Shown here: positions 5,910 to 28,011 of the stretch, in pieces | Numbering within the stretch: position 1 is the stretch's first letter | How the letters are laid out: each line of letters opens with the position of its first letter | Made by a program: the position numbers and the translations under genes | From: a virus | DNA length: 64,000 nucleotides | IMG/VR virus record: IMGVR_UViG_3300027804_000039 | Coordinates: 32,001 to 96,000 of that record | Strand: one strand, 5' to 3' | Notes under the pieces: generated by a model | The model's input: only the letters and a program-made list of their open reading frames with translations | Told to the model about the DNA's origin: nothing | Databases searched by the model: none

Positions 5910-6518
5910 TTACATTGTAGGACCGTTGCCGTTCCTAAAACCCACATTACCACCTTCTGCTTCAATTCGCTTTAACACATCTTCAAATAAGATAGGTGCA
6001 AAGTCTGGTGTTTGTTCTACGCAAACGCAATGGTAGCGTGGATCAATTTCGTCACCGTATAACACTTCGCCGGTCTTAGCATCAACTCCGCGGGCCTTAC
6101 GCACTCGATTTGCGTGTAAGTGTCCGTGAATGTTAACACCAAAACGTCCTAAGCTATCTGCGTGTACAGGAATATGACTTAAGATCATTCCGTTCATAAC
6201 ATGGTATGCCCGTAATTCTCTAAAGTATTGTCTGTACTCGTCATCTCTAAAGATGTCGTGGTTACCGCGAATTAAGACCTTGTCGCCGTTTAAGCGTCTT
6301 AAAGTTCCTAACGCCTTACGGTTAATAACAACGTCACCTAAGTGGTAGACTTTATCTGTGGGCTTGACTCTTTCGTTCCAAGCCTTAACCATGGCTTCGT
6401 CCATTTCGTCCGGGTCATCCCACGGACGTAACTTTGTAAAGCCATCGCTACGTGTGAAGCGGCAAACACCTGTGTGACCAAAGTGCGTGTCGCTGACTAA
6501 AAATACACTAGGCATCAT
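5910..6518 (-). CDS. Calcineurin-like metallophosphoesterase
   Basis: SDTHFGH, HLGD, RGNHD, HGHLH motifs. Confidence 0.9.
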   Translation of the reverse strand: MMPSVFLVSDTHFGHTGVCRFTRSDGFTKLRPWDDPDEMDEAMVKAWNERVKPTDKVYHLGDVVINRKALGTLRRLNGDKVLIRGNHDIFRDDEYRQYFRELRAYHVMNGMILSHIPVHADSLGRFGVNIHGHLHANRVRKARGVDAKTGEVLYGDEIDPRYHCVCVEQTPDFAPILFEDVLKRIEAEGGNVGFRNGNGPTM

Positions 6519-6529
6519 GCCCTCCTTTC

Positions 6530-6997
6530 TTAAAAATCATTTCTAAAAGCTCGCCAATCATCTATGTTTGGCGTTTCATCTGCATCATAAGTCCAACCCA
6601 ATGCTTTCATCATACGGTGCTTGACTAGTAAGTTAGGGCTACGAAATCTTTCTGTATCTTGAAATCCCATCATAACTCCTACTTCGCAGACAGCACCGCT
6701 ACGACAAATGCCAGCAAAGCAATGAACAATAACGTCCATGTGATTGTCTAGTGCATGTTGGAGCAAACGAACAAGCTCGTTGGCTTGCTCTTGGCTGCAC
6801 TTCATTGCTTCTTCTAACACTTCGTCTTTTTCTTCTACGTCAAGAAATTCAAAACGATGTACTTCTTTGAATTGATGCTTTGGTGTTGGGAACCAACTTG
6901 CTGGGTCAGCAATTTGGATCAACATTGAATTTTCTTTTACAGCAACATGGAATCCTTTTGGAATATCATCTGCTGCACAATTTTGAATCCACGGCAT
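6530..6997 (-). CDS. Cys-based (PTP/dual-specificity-like) phosphatase
   Basis: HCFAGICRS = CX5R active-site loop. Confidence 0.8.
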   Translation of the reverse strand: MPWIQNCAADDIPKGFHVAVKENSMLIQIADPASWFPTPKHQFKEVHRFEFLDVEEKDEVLEEAMKCSQEQANELVRLLQHALDNHMDVIVHCFAGICRSGAVCEVGVMMGFQDTERFRSPNLLVKHRMMKALGWTYDADETPNIDDWRAFRNDF

Positions 6998-7642: not shown

Positions 7643-9049
7643 TTAGATATCGTAGCGTGGGACCATTACAGTCTTAAGCATGATACCTTCTGGAGTGAAT
7701 TGATCCAAATCAGCTGAAAGCAAGGCCTTCATGATGCTTGGGCTAAATCCACTTACCAGTGCCGCACCACTCTTGTCTGCCTTTACAGGCACGTTACCAG
7801 AACTGTTTAGGTTCCAGAACACAATTTGTGGAACAGTATAACCTGCATCTGCGAACTTGCGTTCAATCATTTGCATTGCTGTGTCGTCGAAACGAGCACA
7901 TTGGTTAAACTGCATGTCGCTCAAGATAAGCAACATCTTTGGCATATCGCTTTCTGGGACGTTACCCTTGACAGCAACACTAAGGATCTTGTCCATAGCC
8001 TTGTGCAAGTCGGTACTCATTTCCCAGTTACTACGTGACATTTGGTCAACCTTTTGAACGATGTTACCCTTTAGAGTAACAAGTTCTGGCTTGCTTGAGA
8101 AGGTCAAGAATGTGTCCTTGAACGCACCCTTGTTCTTGTCTGCTAGGTACAAACCTAAACCAACTGCAACGTCCAAGCAACGAACAGACGAACCTGGAAC
8201 AGGTGTGGTCATAGAACCACTTACGTCGACTAGAGGTAGGATACTTGCGTCACCTACATAGTTAGGCAGAGCGTCCCATTGTGCGATGACATGGTCGGTT
8301 TCTGTCTTGTCCAGCTTGGTGTAGCTGTGTGCGATGCCCTTAAGGACATCGTGTGGGAAGATTGCATCGGCGTTAACCTTTACAGTCTTATCCCCTGCCA
8401 CCAACTTGGCCACATACTCTGCAAATGCAGGTGTGTGACGGTTGAATGCCTTCTTGTAGTTGCGAGCAGCTACAGAAGGAACATGTGAGAAGTTAATGTT
8501 GTCCCAGTCGTTGGCACACATTTGTGTTTCAACAACTGTAGTGAGAGCAACAAGACTCTTACGATATTGCTTAGGAGTCATTCCGAAGAATGCTCGTACT
8601 TCAGCCGCAATCTTACCCTTACGTGGAGTCCACTTAGCGGCAAGACCGTTCTTCGCACGAAGGGCATCGCCCAACATGGTATAAGCGGCTGACTTTAGGA
8701 CCGGACTTTGGAAGACAAAGATATCATCCCAGCGGCCTACTTCAGGCACCTTCTTTAGCAAAGCCAAAGCGGCGTCTGGATCGCGTTGTTCTAGATGAAC
8801 TAGAATATCGCGGAACAGTTGACGTTCACCTGCACCGCCACGGACATCACGTGCCCATTGTGCAATGCGAAGTGCTACATCAGAATTCTCGACATACGCG
8901 GCAGTAAATGCCTTAGTGATGTCCTTACCACGGCTTGCGCCGATGTTGTAAAACAGGTCAACTGTAGCCTTAGCTGTTGACTTACGTGCCTTCATACCGT
9001 TTGCGGTACGGGCTTCTTGGTTTGCTACTGCTGTTACAAATGCGTTCAT
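7643..9049 (-). CDS. DUF2828-family helical-repeat + vWA protein (Ro60/TROVE-like architecture)
   Basis: RDVRGGAGER, GRWDD, AKWTPR, C-terminal vWA with MIDAS DVSGSM and ILSDMQF, IVFWNL; Ro60 relationship is inferred. Confidence 0.8.
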   Translation of the reverse strand: MNAFVTAVANQEARTANGMKARKSTAKATVDLFYNIGASRGKDITKAFTAAYVENSDVALRIAQWARDVRGGAGERQLFRDILVHLEQRDPDAALALLKKVPEVGRWDDIFVFQSPVLKSAAYTMLGDALRAKNGLAAKWTPRKGKIAAEVRAFFGMTPKQYRKSLVALTTVVETQMCANDWDNINFSHVPSVAARNYKKAFNRHTPAFAEYVAKLVAGDKTVKVNADAIFPHDVLKGIAHSYTKLDKTETDHVIAQWDALPNYVGDASILPLVDVSGSMTTPVPGSSVRCLDVAVGLGLYLADKNKGAFKDTFLTFSSKPELVTLKGNIVQKVDQMSRSNWEMSTDLHKAMDKILSVAVKGNVPESDMPKMLLILSDMQFNQCARFDDTAMQMIERKFADAGYTVPQIVFWNLNSSGNVPVKADKSGAALVSGFSPSIMKALLSADLDQFTPEGIMLKTVMVPRYDI

Positions 9050-9062
9050 GTGTGTTTCCTTT

Positions 9063-9118
9063 CAGAATGTATTTTGTTTTCGATATGCTTGAAAATTTAA
9101 GGTTGCTGTTAACATTCT
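9063..9118 (-). ncRNA. CAGCAA-stem RNA copy A (56 nt, abuts SD of DUF2828 gene)
   Basis: 5' AGAAUGU-UAA-CAGCAA...ACAUUCU-G 3'. Confidence 0.75.
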
Positions 9119-9128
9119 ATGTCTCTAG

Positions 9129-9380
9129 CAGGATGAGCGGAACGGTTTTTATTTTCTGCTTGACCCCATCCCCTGTATATCGGTTCAGTTCCTCAAGCCT
9201 ATTATGTAAGTTCTGTACATAAACATATAGGTCTTTCCCTAGTCGTTAGTTCCGTAAGCGTCTGTATTGCTACAGATAGGGCACCTTCAATGGATTTCTC
9301 CTCCAGTGTTCCAAGCCTTGCGAGCCACCGTCTACTACATTAAGTGCAGTCAGTATAGTTTAAATTGCTGAAATCATCCT
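9129..9380 (-). ncRNA. CAGCAA-stem RNA copy B (252 nt)
   Basis: 5' AGGAUGA-UUU-CAGCAA...UCAUCCU-G 3'; internal GCAA tetraloop hairpins. Confidence 0.75.
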
Positions 9381-9389
9381 AGAAATCAA

Positions 9390-9510
9390 CAGATTAGTTT
9401 TGTGCCCACTCTTTTACATGTTTGAGCTACATGTTTGATAGGCTGTGAAGTTATCTCTGCCCATCGTTTGATACGGGTATTAGCCGTGAATGATTTGCTG
9501 TAACTAATCT
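9390..9510 (-). ncRNA. CAGCAA-stem RNA copy C (121 nt)
   Basis: 5' AGAUUAG-UUA-CAGCAA...CUAAUCU-G 3'. Confidence 0.75.
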
Positions 9511-11166: not shown

Positions 11167-11265
11167 TGGTGCCTCTGGCAGGACTCGAACCTGCACACTC
11201 AGGCTTATCTGGCCTGTGCTTTGGCGAGGTATAAGCTCGCTTCTTTACCATTAAGCTACAGAGGC
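11167..11265 (-). tRNA. tRNA-Ile(UAU) with 29-nt variable region
   Basis: GCGAG-CU-UAU-AC-CUCGC anticodon arm; long variable hairpin; 99 nt; CCA. Confidence 0.8.
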
Positions 11266-14083: not shown

Positions 14084-14091
14084 AAATAAAT

Positions 14092-14193
14092 CGGGATGAG
14101 GTGCCTAAGACCGGGACTCGAACCCACGGCACACCCCCAAGCGGGCCGGCCTCGCGAGAATGGAGCGAGTAAGTTGTTTGCTGTAATCATCCC
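14092..14193 (-). ncRNA. CAGCAA-stem RNA copy D with T-loop-like hairpin
   Basis: GGGAUGA-UUA-CAGCAA...GGG-UUCGAGU-CCC...UCAUCCC-G. Confidence 0.75.
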
Positions 14194-14198
14194 TAAAC

Positions 14199-14318
14199 TG
14201 GTGGAGCCCCGTGGATTCGAACCACGATCACGTCCTTATGCATGGAATTTGTAAATTGCTGACTGTATCCTTGTCAGGATAACCTTTTTTACGTATGCTA
14301 CCATTACACCAGAGCTCC
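14199..14318 (-). ncRNA. tRNA-shaped RNA with the CAGCAA module in place of the anticodon loop (copy E)
   Basis: Acceptor GGAGCUC/GGGCUCC-ACCA, normal D and T arms; anticodon region holds UUAUCCU-GACA-AGGAUAC-AGU-CAGCAA. Confidence 0.8.
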
Positions 14319-14327
14319 AAAATAAAA

Positions 14328-14443
14328 CAGGATAGAATTTAACATAGTGCTACCGTTACACCAAACCTTTCGGCTGCGGAGTCGAACCGCTCCCTTACTT
14401 TTCAAGAGTAGTAGTTGTTATTAAATTTTGCTGTTACTATCCT
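14328..14443 (-). ncRNA. CAGCAA-stem RNA copy F, circularly permuted tRNA mimic
   Basis: AGGAUAG-UAA-CAGCAA; T arm GCGG-UUCGACU-CCGC; acceptor AGCC-GAAA-GGUU; D arm GUGUAACGGUAGCAC; CUAUCCU-G. Confidence 0.8.
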
Positions 14444-14448
14444 TAAAC

Positions 14449-14530
14449 TGGTACCCCTCCCCGGACTCGAACCGGGAGAAACTAACACTCCTTTTGAGAG
14501 AGCTGCCTTTACCAATTTGGCCAGAGGGGC
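14449..14530 (-). tRNA. tRNA-Leu(CAA)
   Basis: Loop CU-CAA-AA. Confidence 0.88.
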
Positions 14531-14540
14531 ATAAACTTGT

Positions 14541-14615
14541 TGGTAGTTCCTACTGGGATCGAACCAGTGACCCACACCATGTCAAGGTGTTGCGCTACCG
14601 CTACGCTAAGGAACT
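14541..14615 (-). tRNA. tRNA-Val(GAC)
   Basis: Loop UU-GAC-AU. Confidence 0.9.
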
Positions 14616-14793
14616 ATTGTTTGAACTTTTCTTTGACACGTTCTAATGCCTCTTTACGCATTAAATAAGAACGCTGTTCATTTATTTTATGAACATAGAT
14701 GTATTCGACACCGTCGATTATCTCAACTCTACGAGTGTCTTCACATATAAATTTATCGTTGTTCATGCGATTTTTAAATGTTACAGGTTTCAT
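14614..14793 (-). CDS. Small hypothetical protein (59 aa, not in ORF track)
   Basis: MKPVTFKNRMNNDKFICED...; SD AAGGAGAG. Confidence 0.65.
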   Translation of the reverse strand: MKPVTFKNRMNNDKFICEDTRRVEIIDGVEYIYVHKINEQRSYLMRKEALERVKEKFKQ

Positions 14794-14813
14794 AACACTC
14801 TCCTTGAATAAAA

Positions 14814-14927
14814 CGGGATACTATCGTTTTGACGAATGCTCTACCTAATGAGCTAAACTGGCATGAAGCCAACTGTTGGACTCGAACCAACTACCTATCG
14901 TTTGGATAGATTTGCTGTGAGTATCCC
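14814..14927 (-). ncRNA. CAGCAA-stem RNA copy G, circularly permuted tRNA mimic
   Basis: GGGAUAC-UCA-CAGCAA; T arm GUUGG-UUCGAGU-CCAAC; acceptor AGUUGGC-UUCAU-GCCAGUU; D arm GCUCAUUAGGUAGAGC; GUAUCCC-G. Confidence 0.82.
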
Positions 14928-14933
14928 TAAACT

Positions 14934-15008
14934 TGGAGCAGGATATCGGGTTCGAACCGATGACATTCTCGTTGGCAACGAGACATTCTACCACTGAATT
15001 AATCCTGC
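14934..15008 (-). tRNA. tRNA-Gly(GCC)
   Basis: Loop UU-GCC-AA, U73. Confidence 0.92.
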
Positions 15009-15941: not shown

Positions 15942-16059
15942 GTCATTCTCCTTAAAAAACAAATTATATATTCATTTCAAATTCTTGTCAATGAACATAA
16001 TCAGTACTACGAGTAAAAGTAAAACAGCCACCGCCCCATGATTGTTCTCCTTAAAAAAA

Positions 16060-16122
16060 CAGGATGTATTTTTACGGTTTAGATTAAAAGTCTAATGTAT
16101 AAATTTTTGCTGTTAACATCCT
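16060..16122 (-). ncRNA. CAGCAA-stem RNA copy H carrying a Lys(UUU)-like anticodon stem-loop
   Basis: AGGAUGU-UAA-CAGCAA...UUAGA-CUUUUAA-UCUAA...ACAUCCU-G. Confidence 0.78.
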
Positions 16123-16128
16123 TAAACT

Positions 16129-16936: not shown

Positions 16937-16945
16937 ATAAAAAAA

Positions 16946-17005
16946 CAGGATACATTTTCTTTTTTCACCAATTGAAAGTTGAATAAAGTTTGCTGTGAGT
17001 ATCCT
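16946..17005 (-). ncRNA. CAGCAA-stem RNA copy I carrying a Glu(UUC)-like anticodon stem-loop
   Basis: AGGAUAC-UCA-CAGCAA...UCAA-CUUUCAA-UUGG...GUAUCCU-G. Confidence 0.78.
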
Positions 17006-17011
17006 TAAACT

Positions 17012-26840: not shown

Positions 26841-26916
26841 TGGTGCGCTGAGTGGGAATCGAACCCACGCATCTGGAGTTTTAGAGGCTCCCGCTGTTCC
26901 ATTTAGCTATCAGCGC
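26841..26916 (-). tRNA. Amber-suppressor-type tRNA (CUA anticodon)
   Basis: GCGCUGA/UCAGCGC-ACCA; GGAGC-CU-CUA-AA-ACUCC; own promoter TTGACG-17-TATAAT at 26925-26953. Confidence 0.82.
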
Positions 26917-27428: not shown

Positions 27429-27546
27429 ACTAAATTTTTCCTTATGTGTTTCACTGTGTGTGATGTCTTTCTATATATCTACGAAAAACACACAGCTTAG
27501 AGTATTATATATTCACGTAAACCATGAGAGCAAATTTTTTTACTCC

Positions 27547-27574
27547 AAAAAAATAGCACCCGAAGGTGCTATTT
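27547..27574 (-). terminator. Terminator after tmRNA
   Basis: aaatagcacc-cgaa-ggtgctattt plus U-tract. Confidence 0.8.
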
Positions 27575-27925
27575 GTTATTTTGGGTGACAAGGTATAACT
27601 ACCCCGGTTCCGCTGTTTCTTAGGCAGCTAAAGCAAACTTGCTGTCGTTGACAGCTACGTCTACTTCGTAGAACTTAAATGCTGATTTTGCATTTATAAG
27701 TTTTGCTTGATTTACGGTCATCGCCTACCGTGTTGCCGTCTCTACTATCTACCCCTGTCGAAACCATGGCAGGCCCATCATAAAATGACTAGGAAAACTA
27801 TAGCAACTGCGATAAATCCAACTAGTGTACTATATCCAGTGTCCATACTAATCTCCTTATGGTGGACCTGGCGGGAGTCGAACCCGCGTCCAGAAGTCCT
27901 TCGCTTTGAAGGGATTACAACAATT
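27575..27925 (-). ncRNA. ssrA: Two-piece (circularly permuted) tmRNA
   Basis: Acceptor piece ends GCGGGUUCGACUCCCGC-CAGGUCC-ACCA (27860); coding piece starts GGGCCUG (27776), giving G3:U70; tag ORF 27620-27691 AKSAFKFYEVDVAVNDSKFALAA. Confidence 0.92.
27778..27846 (-). CDS. 22-aa hydrophobic peptide inside the tmRNA intervening segment
   Basis: UAAGGAG SD; MDTGYSTLVGFIAVAIVFLVIL. Confidence 0.6.
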   Translation of the reverse strand: MDTGYSTLVGFIAVAIVFLVIL

Positions 27926-27927
27926 CT

Positions 27928-28011
27928 TTACTTACTATTGCGTCTTCTAGTAGCTTTAGCTCTAGAAGCTGCTTTCGTACGTGCCGCACGGGCTCTTACT
28001 AATCTTCCCAT
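27928..28011 (-). CDS. 27-aa Arg/Ala-rich basic peptide
   Basis: MGRLVRARAARTKAASRAKATRRRNSK. Confidence 0.5.
   Translation of the reverse strand: MGRLVRARAARTKAASRAKATRRRNSK

What the first reader, a model, noticed from the sequence alone, without database searches (positions are those of the whole stretch)
14328..14927. Two circularly permuted tRNA mimics (YrlA-like topology) in copies F and G
Seen: order is CAGCAA stem, T arm (UUCGA loop), acceptor stem closed by a loop (GAAA in F; UUCAU in G), D arm (GGUAG loop), closing strand. No CCA end is available. Established: bacterial YrlA Y RNAs have this T-AS-D permuted layout with the Ro-binding stem in place of the anticodon arm. Inference: these are phage YrlA analogues with a different protein-binding stem. 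A standard tRNA scanner would probably miss them or call them pseudo-tRNAs.
Basis: partly seen in the sequence, partly recalled or inferred. Interest (0 to 1): 0.8.

Follow-up and report, generated by a model that had tools for sequence, protein, structure and literature searches.

The report
Phage Y-RNA-like permuted tRNA mimics
Two small RNAs hidden between the tRNA genes of a giant freshwater phage are tRNA look-alikes wired in a different order and closed by a conserved "handle", and they most likely partner a phage protein shaped like the Ro60 autoantigen, as bacterial Y RNAs do.

Summary
On the minus strand, F (14448-14325) and G (14933-14808) start right after a tRNA's CCA. tRNA scanners miss both.

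They are not debris. A model built from G finds 37 strong matches in related viral contigs. The stems covary (95.7% paired, 14 pairs with double changes, 0 of 500 shuffles as good). All tRNA elbow nucleotides are invariant.

The same stem-plus-CAGCAA handle lies beside or near genes for a DUF2828/DUF7788 protein. Here that gene is at 7643-9049, and its predicted fold matches Ro60 best. The pairing recurs in Mycobacterium phage Nicholas, Salmonella phage FelixO1, Listeria phage LP-125 and others.

F and G are therefore best read as YrlA-type Y RNAs with a different handle and a different Ro-like partner family. They fail Rfam YrlA membership: G scores 27 bits against 69, there is no GNCGAA motif and no TROVE domain.

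Binding and function are untested. Other agents of this scan reported sibling elements in this same window; I re-tested the shared claims.

The parts
14325..14448 (-). Element F. It comprises the handle (stem AGGAUAG/CUAUCCU plus CAGCAA), an inner AU-rich stem, an anticodon-like hairpin (loop CUUGAAA), a T arm, a 3-4 bp acceptor stub capped by GAAA, a D arm and a U-rich tail that abuts the next tRNA-like RNA.
   Evidence: (49.3 bits to R1). Orthologues in L032, L069, L045 and L012. L045 has GCAA in place of GAAA, so the cap stays a GNRA tetraloop.
14808..14933 (-). Element G. It comprises the handle (GGGAUACU/AGUAUCCC plus CAGCAA), hairpin CUAUC-CAAAC-GAUAG, a T arm, a 7-bp acceptor-like stem closed by UUCAU, a D arm, a small 3' hairpin and a U-rich tail.
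   Evidence: z = -5.2; 141.5 bits.
14912..14927 (-). G handle, 5' side: stem strand GGGAUACU, spacer CA, and the CAGCAA motif that is invariant in these alignments.
14428..14443 (-). F handle, 5' side: stem strand AGGAUAG, spacer UAA, CAGCAA.
14856..14874 (-). G acceptor-like hairpin, 7 bp with loop UUCAU. It is the most strongly covarying helix of the family.
   Evidence: 4 of 5 plus 2 of 2 pairs have changes on both sides.
14364..14375 (-). F acceptor stub, (A)GCC-GAAA-GGU(U).
   Evidence: The same position holds 7 bp plus UUGGUC in a sister clade, 7 bp in FelixO1, and nothing in L049.
7643..9049 (-). Gene for the proposed partner, a 468-aa DUF2828 + DUF7788 protein (PHROG 850, 'RNA-binding protein') with a predicted Ro60-like ring plus vWA fold.
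   Evidence: pLDDT 92.5; top 13 PDB matches are all Ro60/Rsr/TROVE-domain entries, including phage phiLo Ro60; TM 0.39-0.65 normalised to the query.
14449..14530 (-). tRNA-Leu(CAA). Its encoded CCA is followed directly by F.
14934..15008 (-). tRNA-Gly(GCC). Its encoded CCA is followed directly by G.

Best explanation
F and G are two paralogous members of a widespread, so far unannotated class of phage Y-RNA-like RNAs.

How they are made. They are transcribed with the tRNA array. They are probably cut out by the enzymes that mature the flanking tRNAs: 3' processing of the upstream CCA end and RNase P at the downstream tRNA. This step is inferred.

The handle. The 5' and 3' ends pair into a 7-8 bp stem. 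Directly after its 5' strand sits an unpaired N2-3-CAGCAA, and a G follows its 3' strand. I infer that this handle is the docking site for the phage's Ro60-fold protein, encoded at 7643-9049.

The displayed part. The rest of the RNA is a circularly permuted tRNA body: an anticodon- or variable-arm-like hairpin, a T arm, an acceptor-like stem closed by a loop, and a D arm. All the nucleotides that form the tRNA elbow are kept (U8, A14, G18, G19, A21, U54, U55, C56, A58).

Likely function. The RNP would show a tRNA elbow whose acceptor end cannot be charged. By analogy with YrlA, it either tethers the Ro-like ring to a tRNA-recognising factor or occupies that factor as a decoy. Candidate factors are a host exonuclease, a tRNA enzyme or a tRNA-targeting defence nuclease.

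Difference between the two. G has a 7-bp acceptor stem and may also be an RNase P substrate, as M. smegmatis YrlA is. F has a 3-4 bp stub and should not be.

What is shown: the structure, its conservation and the co-occurrence with the protein. What is inferred: excision, protein binding and the downstream role.
For: Structure and conservation:
- In the G family, 95.7% of cells are paired and 14 pairs change on both sides. No shuffle of 500 reaches this, and slid controls give 37-44% paired.
- Invariant columns include every canonical elbow nucleotide.
- R1 finds 37 matches above 70 bits in 84 sources. F-type copies sit in the same contigs as G-type copies (L032, L012, L045, L035, L031, L008, L050), so these are two maintained paralogues.

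The partner protein:
- DUF2828 + DUF7788. AF2 pLDDT 92.5, pTM 0.90.
- Foldseek top 13 matches are all Ro60/Rsr/TROVE-domain entries, including phage phiLo Ro60. E is down to 4e-8 and the alignments span the full length.

Linkage of RNA and protein:
- 7 of 10 large contigs that carry the handle hold the gene, although they are only 27-82% complete.
- In 80 loci around homologues of the gene, there are 247 handles on the gene's strand in 76 loci. The antisense strand has 24 and shuffled sequence has 11.
- G-type RNAs lie less than 700 nt upstream of the gene in L149, L112, L160, L161 and L150.

Distant phages with the same protein family and the same handle:
- Mycobacterium phage Nicholas has three handles just downstream of its 'Ro-like RNA binding protein'. 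The middle one scores 69.1 bits to R1 and 37.9 bits to Rfam YrlA.
- FelixO1 has four handles in the tRNA array next to its gene. One is an F-type with the D arm UGGUGUAAUGGUAGCAC.
- Listeria phage LP-125 has three handles directly upstream of its DUF2828 gene. Campylobacter phage PC14 and a Staphylococcus phage also have handles beside theirs.

Literature:
- YrlA has this T-acceptor-D layout, is modified by TruB and DusA, and with a 7-bp acceptor stem is cut by RNase P (PMC4201824).
- The Ro60-like gp130 of the Felix-like phage Bas63 counters the Ppl defence. Its authors guessed that Y RNAs hide among the tRNA genes (10.1101/2024.10.10.617714).
- In Listeria phage CKA15, very abundant unannotated transcripts lie within 2 kb upstream of the homologous gene (PMC12282133).
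Against: - No experiment shows that the handle binds the protein, or that F and G accumulate as discrete RNAs.
- F and G lie 5.3-5.9 kb from the gene, outside the 4-kb rule used for YrlA.
- The 80 gene loci are relatives at 66-93% identity, and tRNA arrays are co-oriented with the gene. The strand bias is therefore partly shared ancestry and operon layout.
- The handle motif CAGCAA is not the GNCGAA/CGAA motif of known Ro60 partners.
- The protein is not detectably related to TROVE by sequence.
- F on its own does not fold better than shuffles (z = -1.4).
- The U-rich tail after the stem would also fit a terminator or processing hairpin.
Confidence: 0.65

Rival explanations
1. The stem-plus-U-tract elements are only punctuation of the tRNA operon: processing stalks for RNase III or E, or weak terminators and insulators that help release neighbouring tRNAs. 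On this reading the tRNA-like inserts have no function of their own and no dedicated protein partner.
For: Every array copy starts 1-6 nt after an encoded CCA and ends in GUUUUAUU-like tails. F ends exactly at the 5' end of the next tRNA-like RNA.
Against: - The inserts are conserved and covary across many phages.
- Handles next to the Ro-like gene in Nicholas, FelixO1, LP-125 and this window (9380, 9108) lack the U tract.
- The invariant single-stranded CAGCAA is not explained by a plain processing stem.
- The terminator scan finds none at these stems.
Confidence: 0.12
2. F and G are tRNA decoys or regulators that act without the Ro-like protein, for example by soaking up a host tRNA-binding enzyme or defence nuclease directly. 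The handle would then serve only to stabilise the ends.
For: The elbow nucleotides are invariant. Anticodon-like loops in F-type relatives vary (CUUGAAA, CUGUAAA, CUGCAAA, CUGGAAA, CGGUAAA), as expected in an arms race. Binding to the protein is unproven.
Against: The handle sequence is conserved between phages of Actinobacteria, Firmicutes, Proteobacteria and Cyanobacteria, and it tracks one protein family. A mere end-clamp would not need an invariant unpaired CAGCAA.
Confidence: 0.15
3. They are circularly permuted tRNA genes, as in Cyanidioschyzon merolae, or two-piece tRNAs, like the permuted tmRNA of this same phage. On this reading they mature into chargeable tRNAs once the acceptor loop is opened.
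For: G has a 7-bp acceptor stem, and ARAGORN accepts it after re-permutation. M. smegmatis YrlA is cut by RNase P and receives CCA in vivo (PMC4201824). The phage has a permuted tmRNA.
Against: - No CCA is encoded, although the array tRNAs examined here encode it.
- The linker is only 4-6 nt.
- F has a 3-4 bp stub, and L049 has no acceptor hairpin at all.
- G's 'anticodon' hairpin has a 5-nt loop.
- There is no bulge-helix-bulge motif at the ends.
- The ends would have to be ligated, and no RtcB is found in the contig, which is about 50% complete.
Confidence: 0.05
4. They are decayed tRNA pseudogenes, or scars of a mobile element that rearranged tRNA genes.
For: The D arm of F resembles that of the phage's own tRNA-Gln and of the tRNA-like RNA at 14200-14322, so descent from tRNA genes is likely.
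Against: Compensatory changes keep every helix paired across dozens of contigs. F-type and G-type are each conserved out to FelixO1 and mycobacteriophages.
Confidence: 0.03

Closest known systems
YrlA (Rfam RF02553), the tRNA-mimicking Y RNA of bacteria and some phages that partners Ro60/Rsr (Chen et al. 2014, PMC4201824)
   Same: - The 5' and 3' ends pair into a stem that carries a conserved motif on the 5' strand.
- Inside the stem the order is variable-arm-like element, T arm, acceptor-like stem closed by a loop, D arm.
- The T and D loops are near-identical to those of tRNA (UAGCUCA..GGUAGAGC, GGUUCGA).
- Several copies occur per genome.
- The RNA is encoded on the same strand as a Ro60-fold ring plus vWA protein.
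   Different: - The handle motif is N2-3-CAGCAA after a covarying 7-8 bp stem, not GNCGAAN0-1G.
- The partner is DUF2828/DUF7788 and is not detectable as TROVE by sequence.
- F and G sit inside a tRNA array, directly after CCA ends and 5-6 kb from the gene.
- G scores 27.3 bits against a gathering score of 69, and F scores nothing.
- In this family the same handle also carries quite different cargo: anticodon-arm hairpins, a T-arm minihelix, a 250-nt RNA, or sits inside a whole tRNA.
Yrl1/Yrl2 with Ro60 of Thermus phage phiLo (PMC12135203; PDB 9KOP, 9L5Y)
   Same: A phage-encoded Ro60-fold protein has small stem-bulge-stem RNAs encoded next to its gene. phiLo Ro60 is among the best structural matches of the protein here.
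   Different: The phiLo protein is a recognisable TROVE Ro60, and its RNAs carry the CGAA motif. I have no sequence for Yrl1/Yrl2 and did not compare them directly.
Circularly permuted tRNA genes of Cyanidioschyzon merolae, and two-piece (permuted) tmRNA
   Same: The gene order is 3' half (T arm, acceptor 3' strand), linker, then 5' half (acceptor 5' strand, D arm).
   Different: Those precursors are processed into molecules with a free CCA end. Here there is no CCA and no bulge-helix-bulge motif, the break point lies between the D arm and the anticodon-arm position, and the acceptor helix can be a 3-bp stub.

Membership tests
YrlA (Rfam RF02553) | Scores at or above the curated gathering threshold (69 bits) of the covariance model | tested here: not met
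   G scores 27.3 bits over the full model and F has no hit. A false hit spanning two adjacent tRNAs scores 26.4 bits.
YrlA (Rfam RF02553) | tRNA-like domain in the order T arm, acceptor-like stem closed by a loop, D arm, with tRNA-type T and D loops | tested here: met
   U8, A14, G18, G19, A21, U54, U55, C56 and A58 are invariant in 15 G-type sequences.
YrlA (Rfam RF02553) | 5' motif GNCGAAN0-1G, the presumed Rsr contact (PMC4201824) | tested here: not met
   The conserved 5' motif is (U/C)(A)ACAGCAA. The YrlA model's Ro-binding helix columns are unpaired or mismatched in the alignment to G.
YrlA (Rfam RF02553) | Encoded within 4 kb of, and on the same strand as, a TROVE-domain Ro60 orthologue | tested here: not met
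   No TROVE match in the 191-kb contig. A Ro60-fold DUF2828 protein is on the same strand but 5.3-5.9 kb away. In related phages G-type RNAs lie less than 700 nt from that gene.
YrlA (Rfam RF02553) | tRNA-type modifications (Psi55 by TruB, D by DusA); RNase P cleavage when the acceptor stem has 7 bp | not testable with these tools
   This needs RNA from infected cells or in-vitro assays. G has the 7-bp stem and F does not.
Y RNA in the broad sense (RNA partner of a Ro60-fold protein) | Physical association with a Ro60-fold protein | not testable with these tools
   Only genomic linkage across distant phages is available.
Permuted tRNA genes (C. merolae type) | Canonical 7-nt anticodon loop, a processing motif at the ends, and maturation to a CCA-ended tRNA | tested here: not met
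   There is no CCA. G's hairpin loop is 5 nt, F's acceptor is 3-4 bp, and ARAGORN finds nothing in the native order.

The most novel reading that the evidence does not exclude
The CAGCAA handle may be a universal adaptor. Through it, a phage Ro-like ring protein would display dissected tRNA parts: elbow-only bodies (F, G), bare anticodon arms, T-arm minihelices and whole tRNAs. These would serve as a modular decoy or sensor kit against host defences that cut or bind tRNAs. G-type RNAs might in addition be opened by RNase P into two-piece molecules. That would make the DUF2828 RNPs, found in hundreds of cultured phages, a general counter-defence system built from tRNA fragments.
Probability: 0.25. 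Interest if true: 0.85.

Novelty: new variant of a known kind. Interest (0 to 1): 0.66.

Why it matters
Ro60-like DUF2828 genes occur in at least 711 phage records. These include workhorse phages such as FelixO1 and its relatives, P100/A511-like Listeria phages, and Campylobacter, Staphylococcus and mycobacterial phages. Two recent papers guessed that Y RNAs must be hiding near the tRNA genes of such phages but could not point to them.

The handle rule gives a way to find these RNAs in any phage genome. The rule is a 7-bp covarying stem, 2-3 nt, CAGCAA, then the closing strand followed by G. The tRNA-like F and G types fit the same rule.

This gives the anti-Ppl activity reported for Bas63 gp130 candidate RNA partners to test. 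It also shows that phage 'tRNA arrays' contain a second, unannotated class of genes.

Tried and rejected
- Rfam at gathering thresholds gives only tRNAs and tmRNA in the window. At permissive thresholds only a weak YrlA hit to G appears, plus noise such as RAGATH-36 and Dicty class I.
- BLASTN against cultured phages finds only tRNA matches, apart from one match of the neighbouring tRNA-like RNA to cyanophage BUCT-ZZ01.
- TROVE and RtcB profiles find nothing in the contig. phmmer of the protein against PDB sequences finds nothing relevant.
- I considered a self-cleaving ribozyme (HDV-like, hatchet or hammerhead, which can sit after tRNAs). I rejected it from my own reading of the sequence, without a dedicated test: no core motifs, no pseudoknot partners, and the conserved part is a simple stem with one unpaired motif.
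- I considered leader-trailer pairing around tRNAs instead of within elements. I rejected it because the variable stem bases are complementary only within each element.
- R1 finds no F- or G-type RNA in the Listeria, Campylobacter and Staphylococcus phage loci. Only short handles are present there, and two R1 hits there are false matches across adjacent tRNAs.
- My automatic re-permutation script failed on elements with G-U-rich acceptor stems. G was redone by hand.
- The supplementary phage list of Chen et al. 2014 is not held. I could not check whether any DUF2828-type phage was already among their 22 phages.

Full report
**What is there.** The window is part of a 191-kb IMG/VR virus contig estimated to be about 50% complete. 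On its minus strand lies an array of 37 tRNA genes. Element G (14933-14808) begins at the base after the CCA of tRNA-Gly(GCC). Element F (14448-14325) begins at the base after the CCA of tRNA-Leu(CAA).

- a closing stem whose 5' strand is followed by 2-3 nt and CAGCAA
- a T arm with a UUCGANU loop
- an acceptor-like helix closed by a loop: 7 bp plus UUCAU in G, 3-4 bp plus GAAA in F
- U8 N9
- a D arm with a GG-containing loop
- the closing strand, followed by G and a U-rich tail

A hairpin sits between CAGCAA and the T arm, and in F it has a 7-nt anticodon-like loop. G also has a small 3' hairpin. Neither ARAGORN nor the Rfam tRNA model reports the elements. After I re-permuted G by computer, ARAGORN draws it as a cloverleaf.

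**Is it more than chance?**
- The handle motif occurs five times in the window against 0.01 expected. All five are on the minus strand and all directly follow a tRNA. A looser pattern finds seven copies.
- G folds far better than shuffles (z = -5.2). F does not (z = -1.4).
- The decisive evidence is comparative. An exact-pattern scan of IMG/VR found the handle in 83 stretches. Most follow a CCA and fall into two size classes, about 60 nt and about 115-120 nt.
- Fifteen G-type sequences align with 95.7% of cells paired, and 14 of 31 pairs change on both sides. No shuffle out of 500 does as well, and slid controls give 37-44% paired. The acceptor-like stem covaries most.
- The invariant columns include U8, A14, G18, G19, A21, U54, U55, C56 and A58, which are the nucleotides that build the tRNA elbow.
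- A covariance model of G (R1) finds 37 matches above 70 bits in 84 sources. It also picks up F-type RNAs at 41-49 bits.
- F-type RNAs keep the D arm GUGU-ARYGGUA-GCAC and a covarying T stem. Their acceptor element varies: 3 bp plus a GNRA tetraloop, 7 bp plus UUGGUC, 7 bp plus a tetraloop in FelixO1, or none.
- F-type and G-type copies co-occur in at least seven contigs, so they are two maintained paralogues.

**The handle is a module.** The same stem-plus-CAGCAA closes quite different cargo in this window:
- anticodon-arm-like hairpins (17011-16937 and 16128-16050)
- a T-arm minihelix (14199-14088)
- a 250-nt RNA (9380-9130)

It also sits, closed by a loop, in the anticodon position of an otherwise normal CCA-ended tRNA-like RNA (14322-14200). 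The stem bases next to the conserved core differ between copies but are complementary only within each element. This argues for pairing inside the element and against leader-trailer pairing around tRNAs.

**The likely partner.**
- Another note of this scan pointed me to the ORF at 7643-9049, and I tested it myself. Pfam calls it DUF2828 + DUF7788, and PHROGs calls it 'RNA-binding protein'.
- It is not detectable as TROVE by sequence.
- An AlphaFold model built on a 61-sequence alignment is confident (pLDDT 92.5, pTM 0.90).
- Its 13 best PDB matches are all Ro60/Rsr/TROVE-domain entries, from Xenopus, human, Deinococcus and Thermus phage phiLo. The alignments span the full length, E is down to 4e-8 and TM reaches 0.65. 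Isolated vWA domains follow far behind.
- Three handle RNAs fill the leader of this gene.

**Linkage.**
- Seven of ten large contigs with the handle hold a homologue, although all ten are incomplete.
- In 80 loci around homologues there are 247 handles on the gene's strand in 76 loci. The other strand has 24 and shuffled sequence has 11. These loci are relatives, so the count is not independent.

More telling are distant cultured phages with the same protein family (30-49% identity; Pfam confirmed for three of them):
- Mycobacterium phage Nicholas has three handles (GGACNNN stems) immediately downstream of its 'Ro-like RNA binding protein'. The middle one is a G-like permuted tRNA mimic scoring 69.1 bits to R1 and 37.9 bits to Rfam YrlA.
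- Salmonella phage FelixO1 has four handles (AGACCNN stems) between the tRNAs that follow its gene, one of them F-type.
- Listeria phage LP-125 has three handles directly upstream of its gene, and an RtcB-like ligase gene 1.3 kb downstream.
- Campylobacter phage PC14 and a Staphylococcus phage also have handles beside their genes.
- In several relatives of this phage a G-type RNA lies less than 700 nt upstream of the gene.

**Comparison with what is known.**
- YrlA RNAs have the T-acceptor-D layout. They are modified by TruB and DusA, lie within 4 kb of a TROVE Ro60 and carry GNCGAAN0-1G. The M. smegmatis RNA, which has a 7-bp acceptor stem, is cut by RNase P and receives CCA (PMC4201824).
- F and G share the layout and core sequences, but they fail the Rfam threshold, the motif test and the TROVE criterion. 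They work like YrlA, but I do not file them as members.
- The literature I could search contains guesses only. The Bas63 study found that its Ro60-like gp130 counters the Ppl defence, and supposed that some 'tRNA genes' downstream are Y RNAs (10.1101/2024.10.10.617714).
- The CKA15 study saw very abundant unannotated transcripts within 2 kb upstream of its Rsr-like gene, and found that protein in purified virions (PMC12282133). I could not check that those transcripts coincide with the handles I see in the related phage LP-125.
- No paper in the library links DUF2828 to Y RNAs.

**Mechanism and rivals.** My best reading (0.65) is an RNP. The handle docks on the Ro-like ring, and the permuted tRNA body offers a tRNA elbow that cannot be charged. 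That elbow tethers or decoys a tRNA-recognising factor. G may in addition be an RNase P substrate.

The rivals are:
- pure operon punctuation (0.12)
- a protein-independent decoy (0.15)
- true permuted tRNA genes (0.05)
- pseudogene debris (0.03)

The evidence for and against each is given in the Rival explanations section.

**Verdict.** It is a new variant of a known kind: a Y RNA/Ro60 system with a new handle, a new partner family and a new genomic niche. Interest is moderately high because the handle rule makes a widespread and experimentally accessible phage RNP directly testable.

Noticed in passing
window 14200-14322 (-): A normal-order, CCA-ended tRNA-like RNA that ARAGORN misses. Its anticodon position holds the same handle closed by a loop (UAUCCUG-ACA-AGGAUAC-AGUCAGCAA), which makes it the circular permutation of the F/G layout. 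Its D arm is nearly identical to that of F. Cyanophage BUCT-ZZ01 has two such RNAs, with CUGCAA, just downstream of its DUF2828 gene (L096 4578-4824).
   Followed up: partly
window 14088-14199 (-): A handle RNA whose cargo is a GC-rich hairpin plus a T arm enclosed in a GGUGCC/GGCACC helix, with no D arm. An orthologue is in L077.
   Followed up: no
window 16937-17011 and 16050-16128 (-): Short handle RNAs whose cargo is a 5-bp stem with a 7-nt anticodon-like loop (CUUUCAA, CUUUUAA). In related contigs the stem is kept while the three 'anticodon' letters vary (UUU, UGU, GAU, UCU, GCU).
   Followed up: partly
window 9050-9510 (-): Three handle RNAs fill the leader of the Ro-like gene. One has a 250-nt structured cargo of unknown kind. 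The last has a GAAUGU/ACAUUC stem and ends just before the ribosome-binding site.
   Followed up: partly
window 5910-6997 (-): Directly downstream of the Ro-like gene lie a dual-specificity-phosphatase-like ORF (6530-6997) and a calcineurin-like metallophosphoesterase (5910-6518). They could be RNA-end healing enzymes, which recalls the rsr-rtcBA repair operon. In Listeria phage LP-125 an RtcB-like ligase lies 1.3 kb downstream of the homologous gene.
   Followed up: no
window 14614-14793 (-): A 59-codon ORF with a strong AAGGAG site starts 15 nt after G and overlaps the start of tRNA-Val by 2 nt. The same 'ccaaggag' junction follows G-type RNAs in related contigs (L015, L019). It has no PHROG match.
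   Followed up: partly
window 26841-26916 and 27529-27973 (-): An amber-suppressor-type tRNA (anticodon CUA) and a circularly permuted, two-piece-type tmRNA gene.
   Followed up: no
window 11170-11265 (-): The Rfam tRNA model gives 59.7 bits over 96 nt, but ARAGORN does not call a tRNA here. It may be a tRNA with an insertion.
   Followed up: no
L098 (Salmonella phage FelixO1) 5719-6550: Four unannotated handle RNAs (AGACCNN...NNGGUCU-G with UUACAGCAA) lie between annotated tRNA genes of a classic laboratory phage. The one at 6428-6550 is an F-type permuted tRNA mimic.
   Followed up: partly
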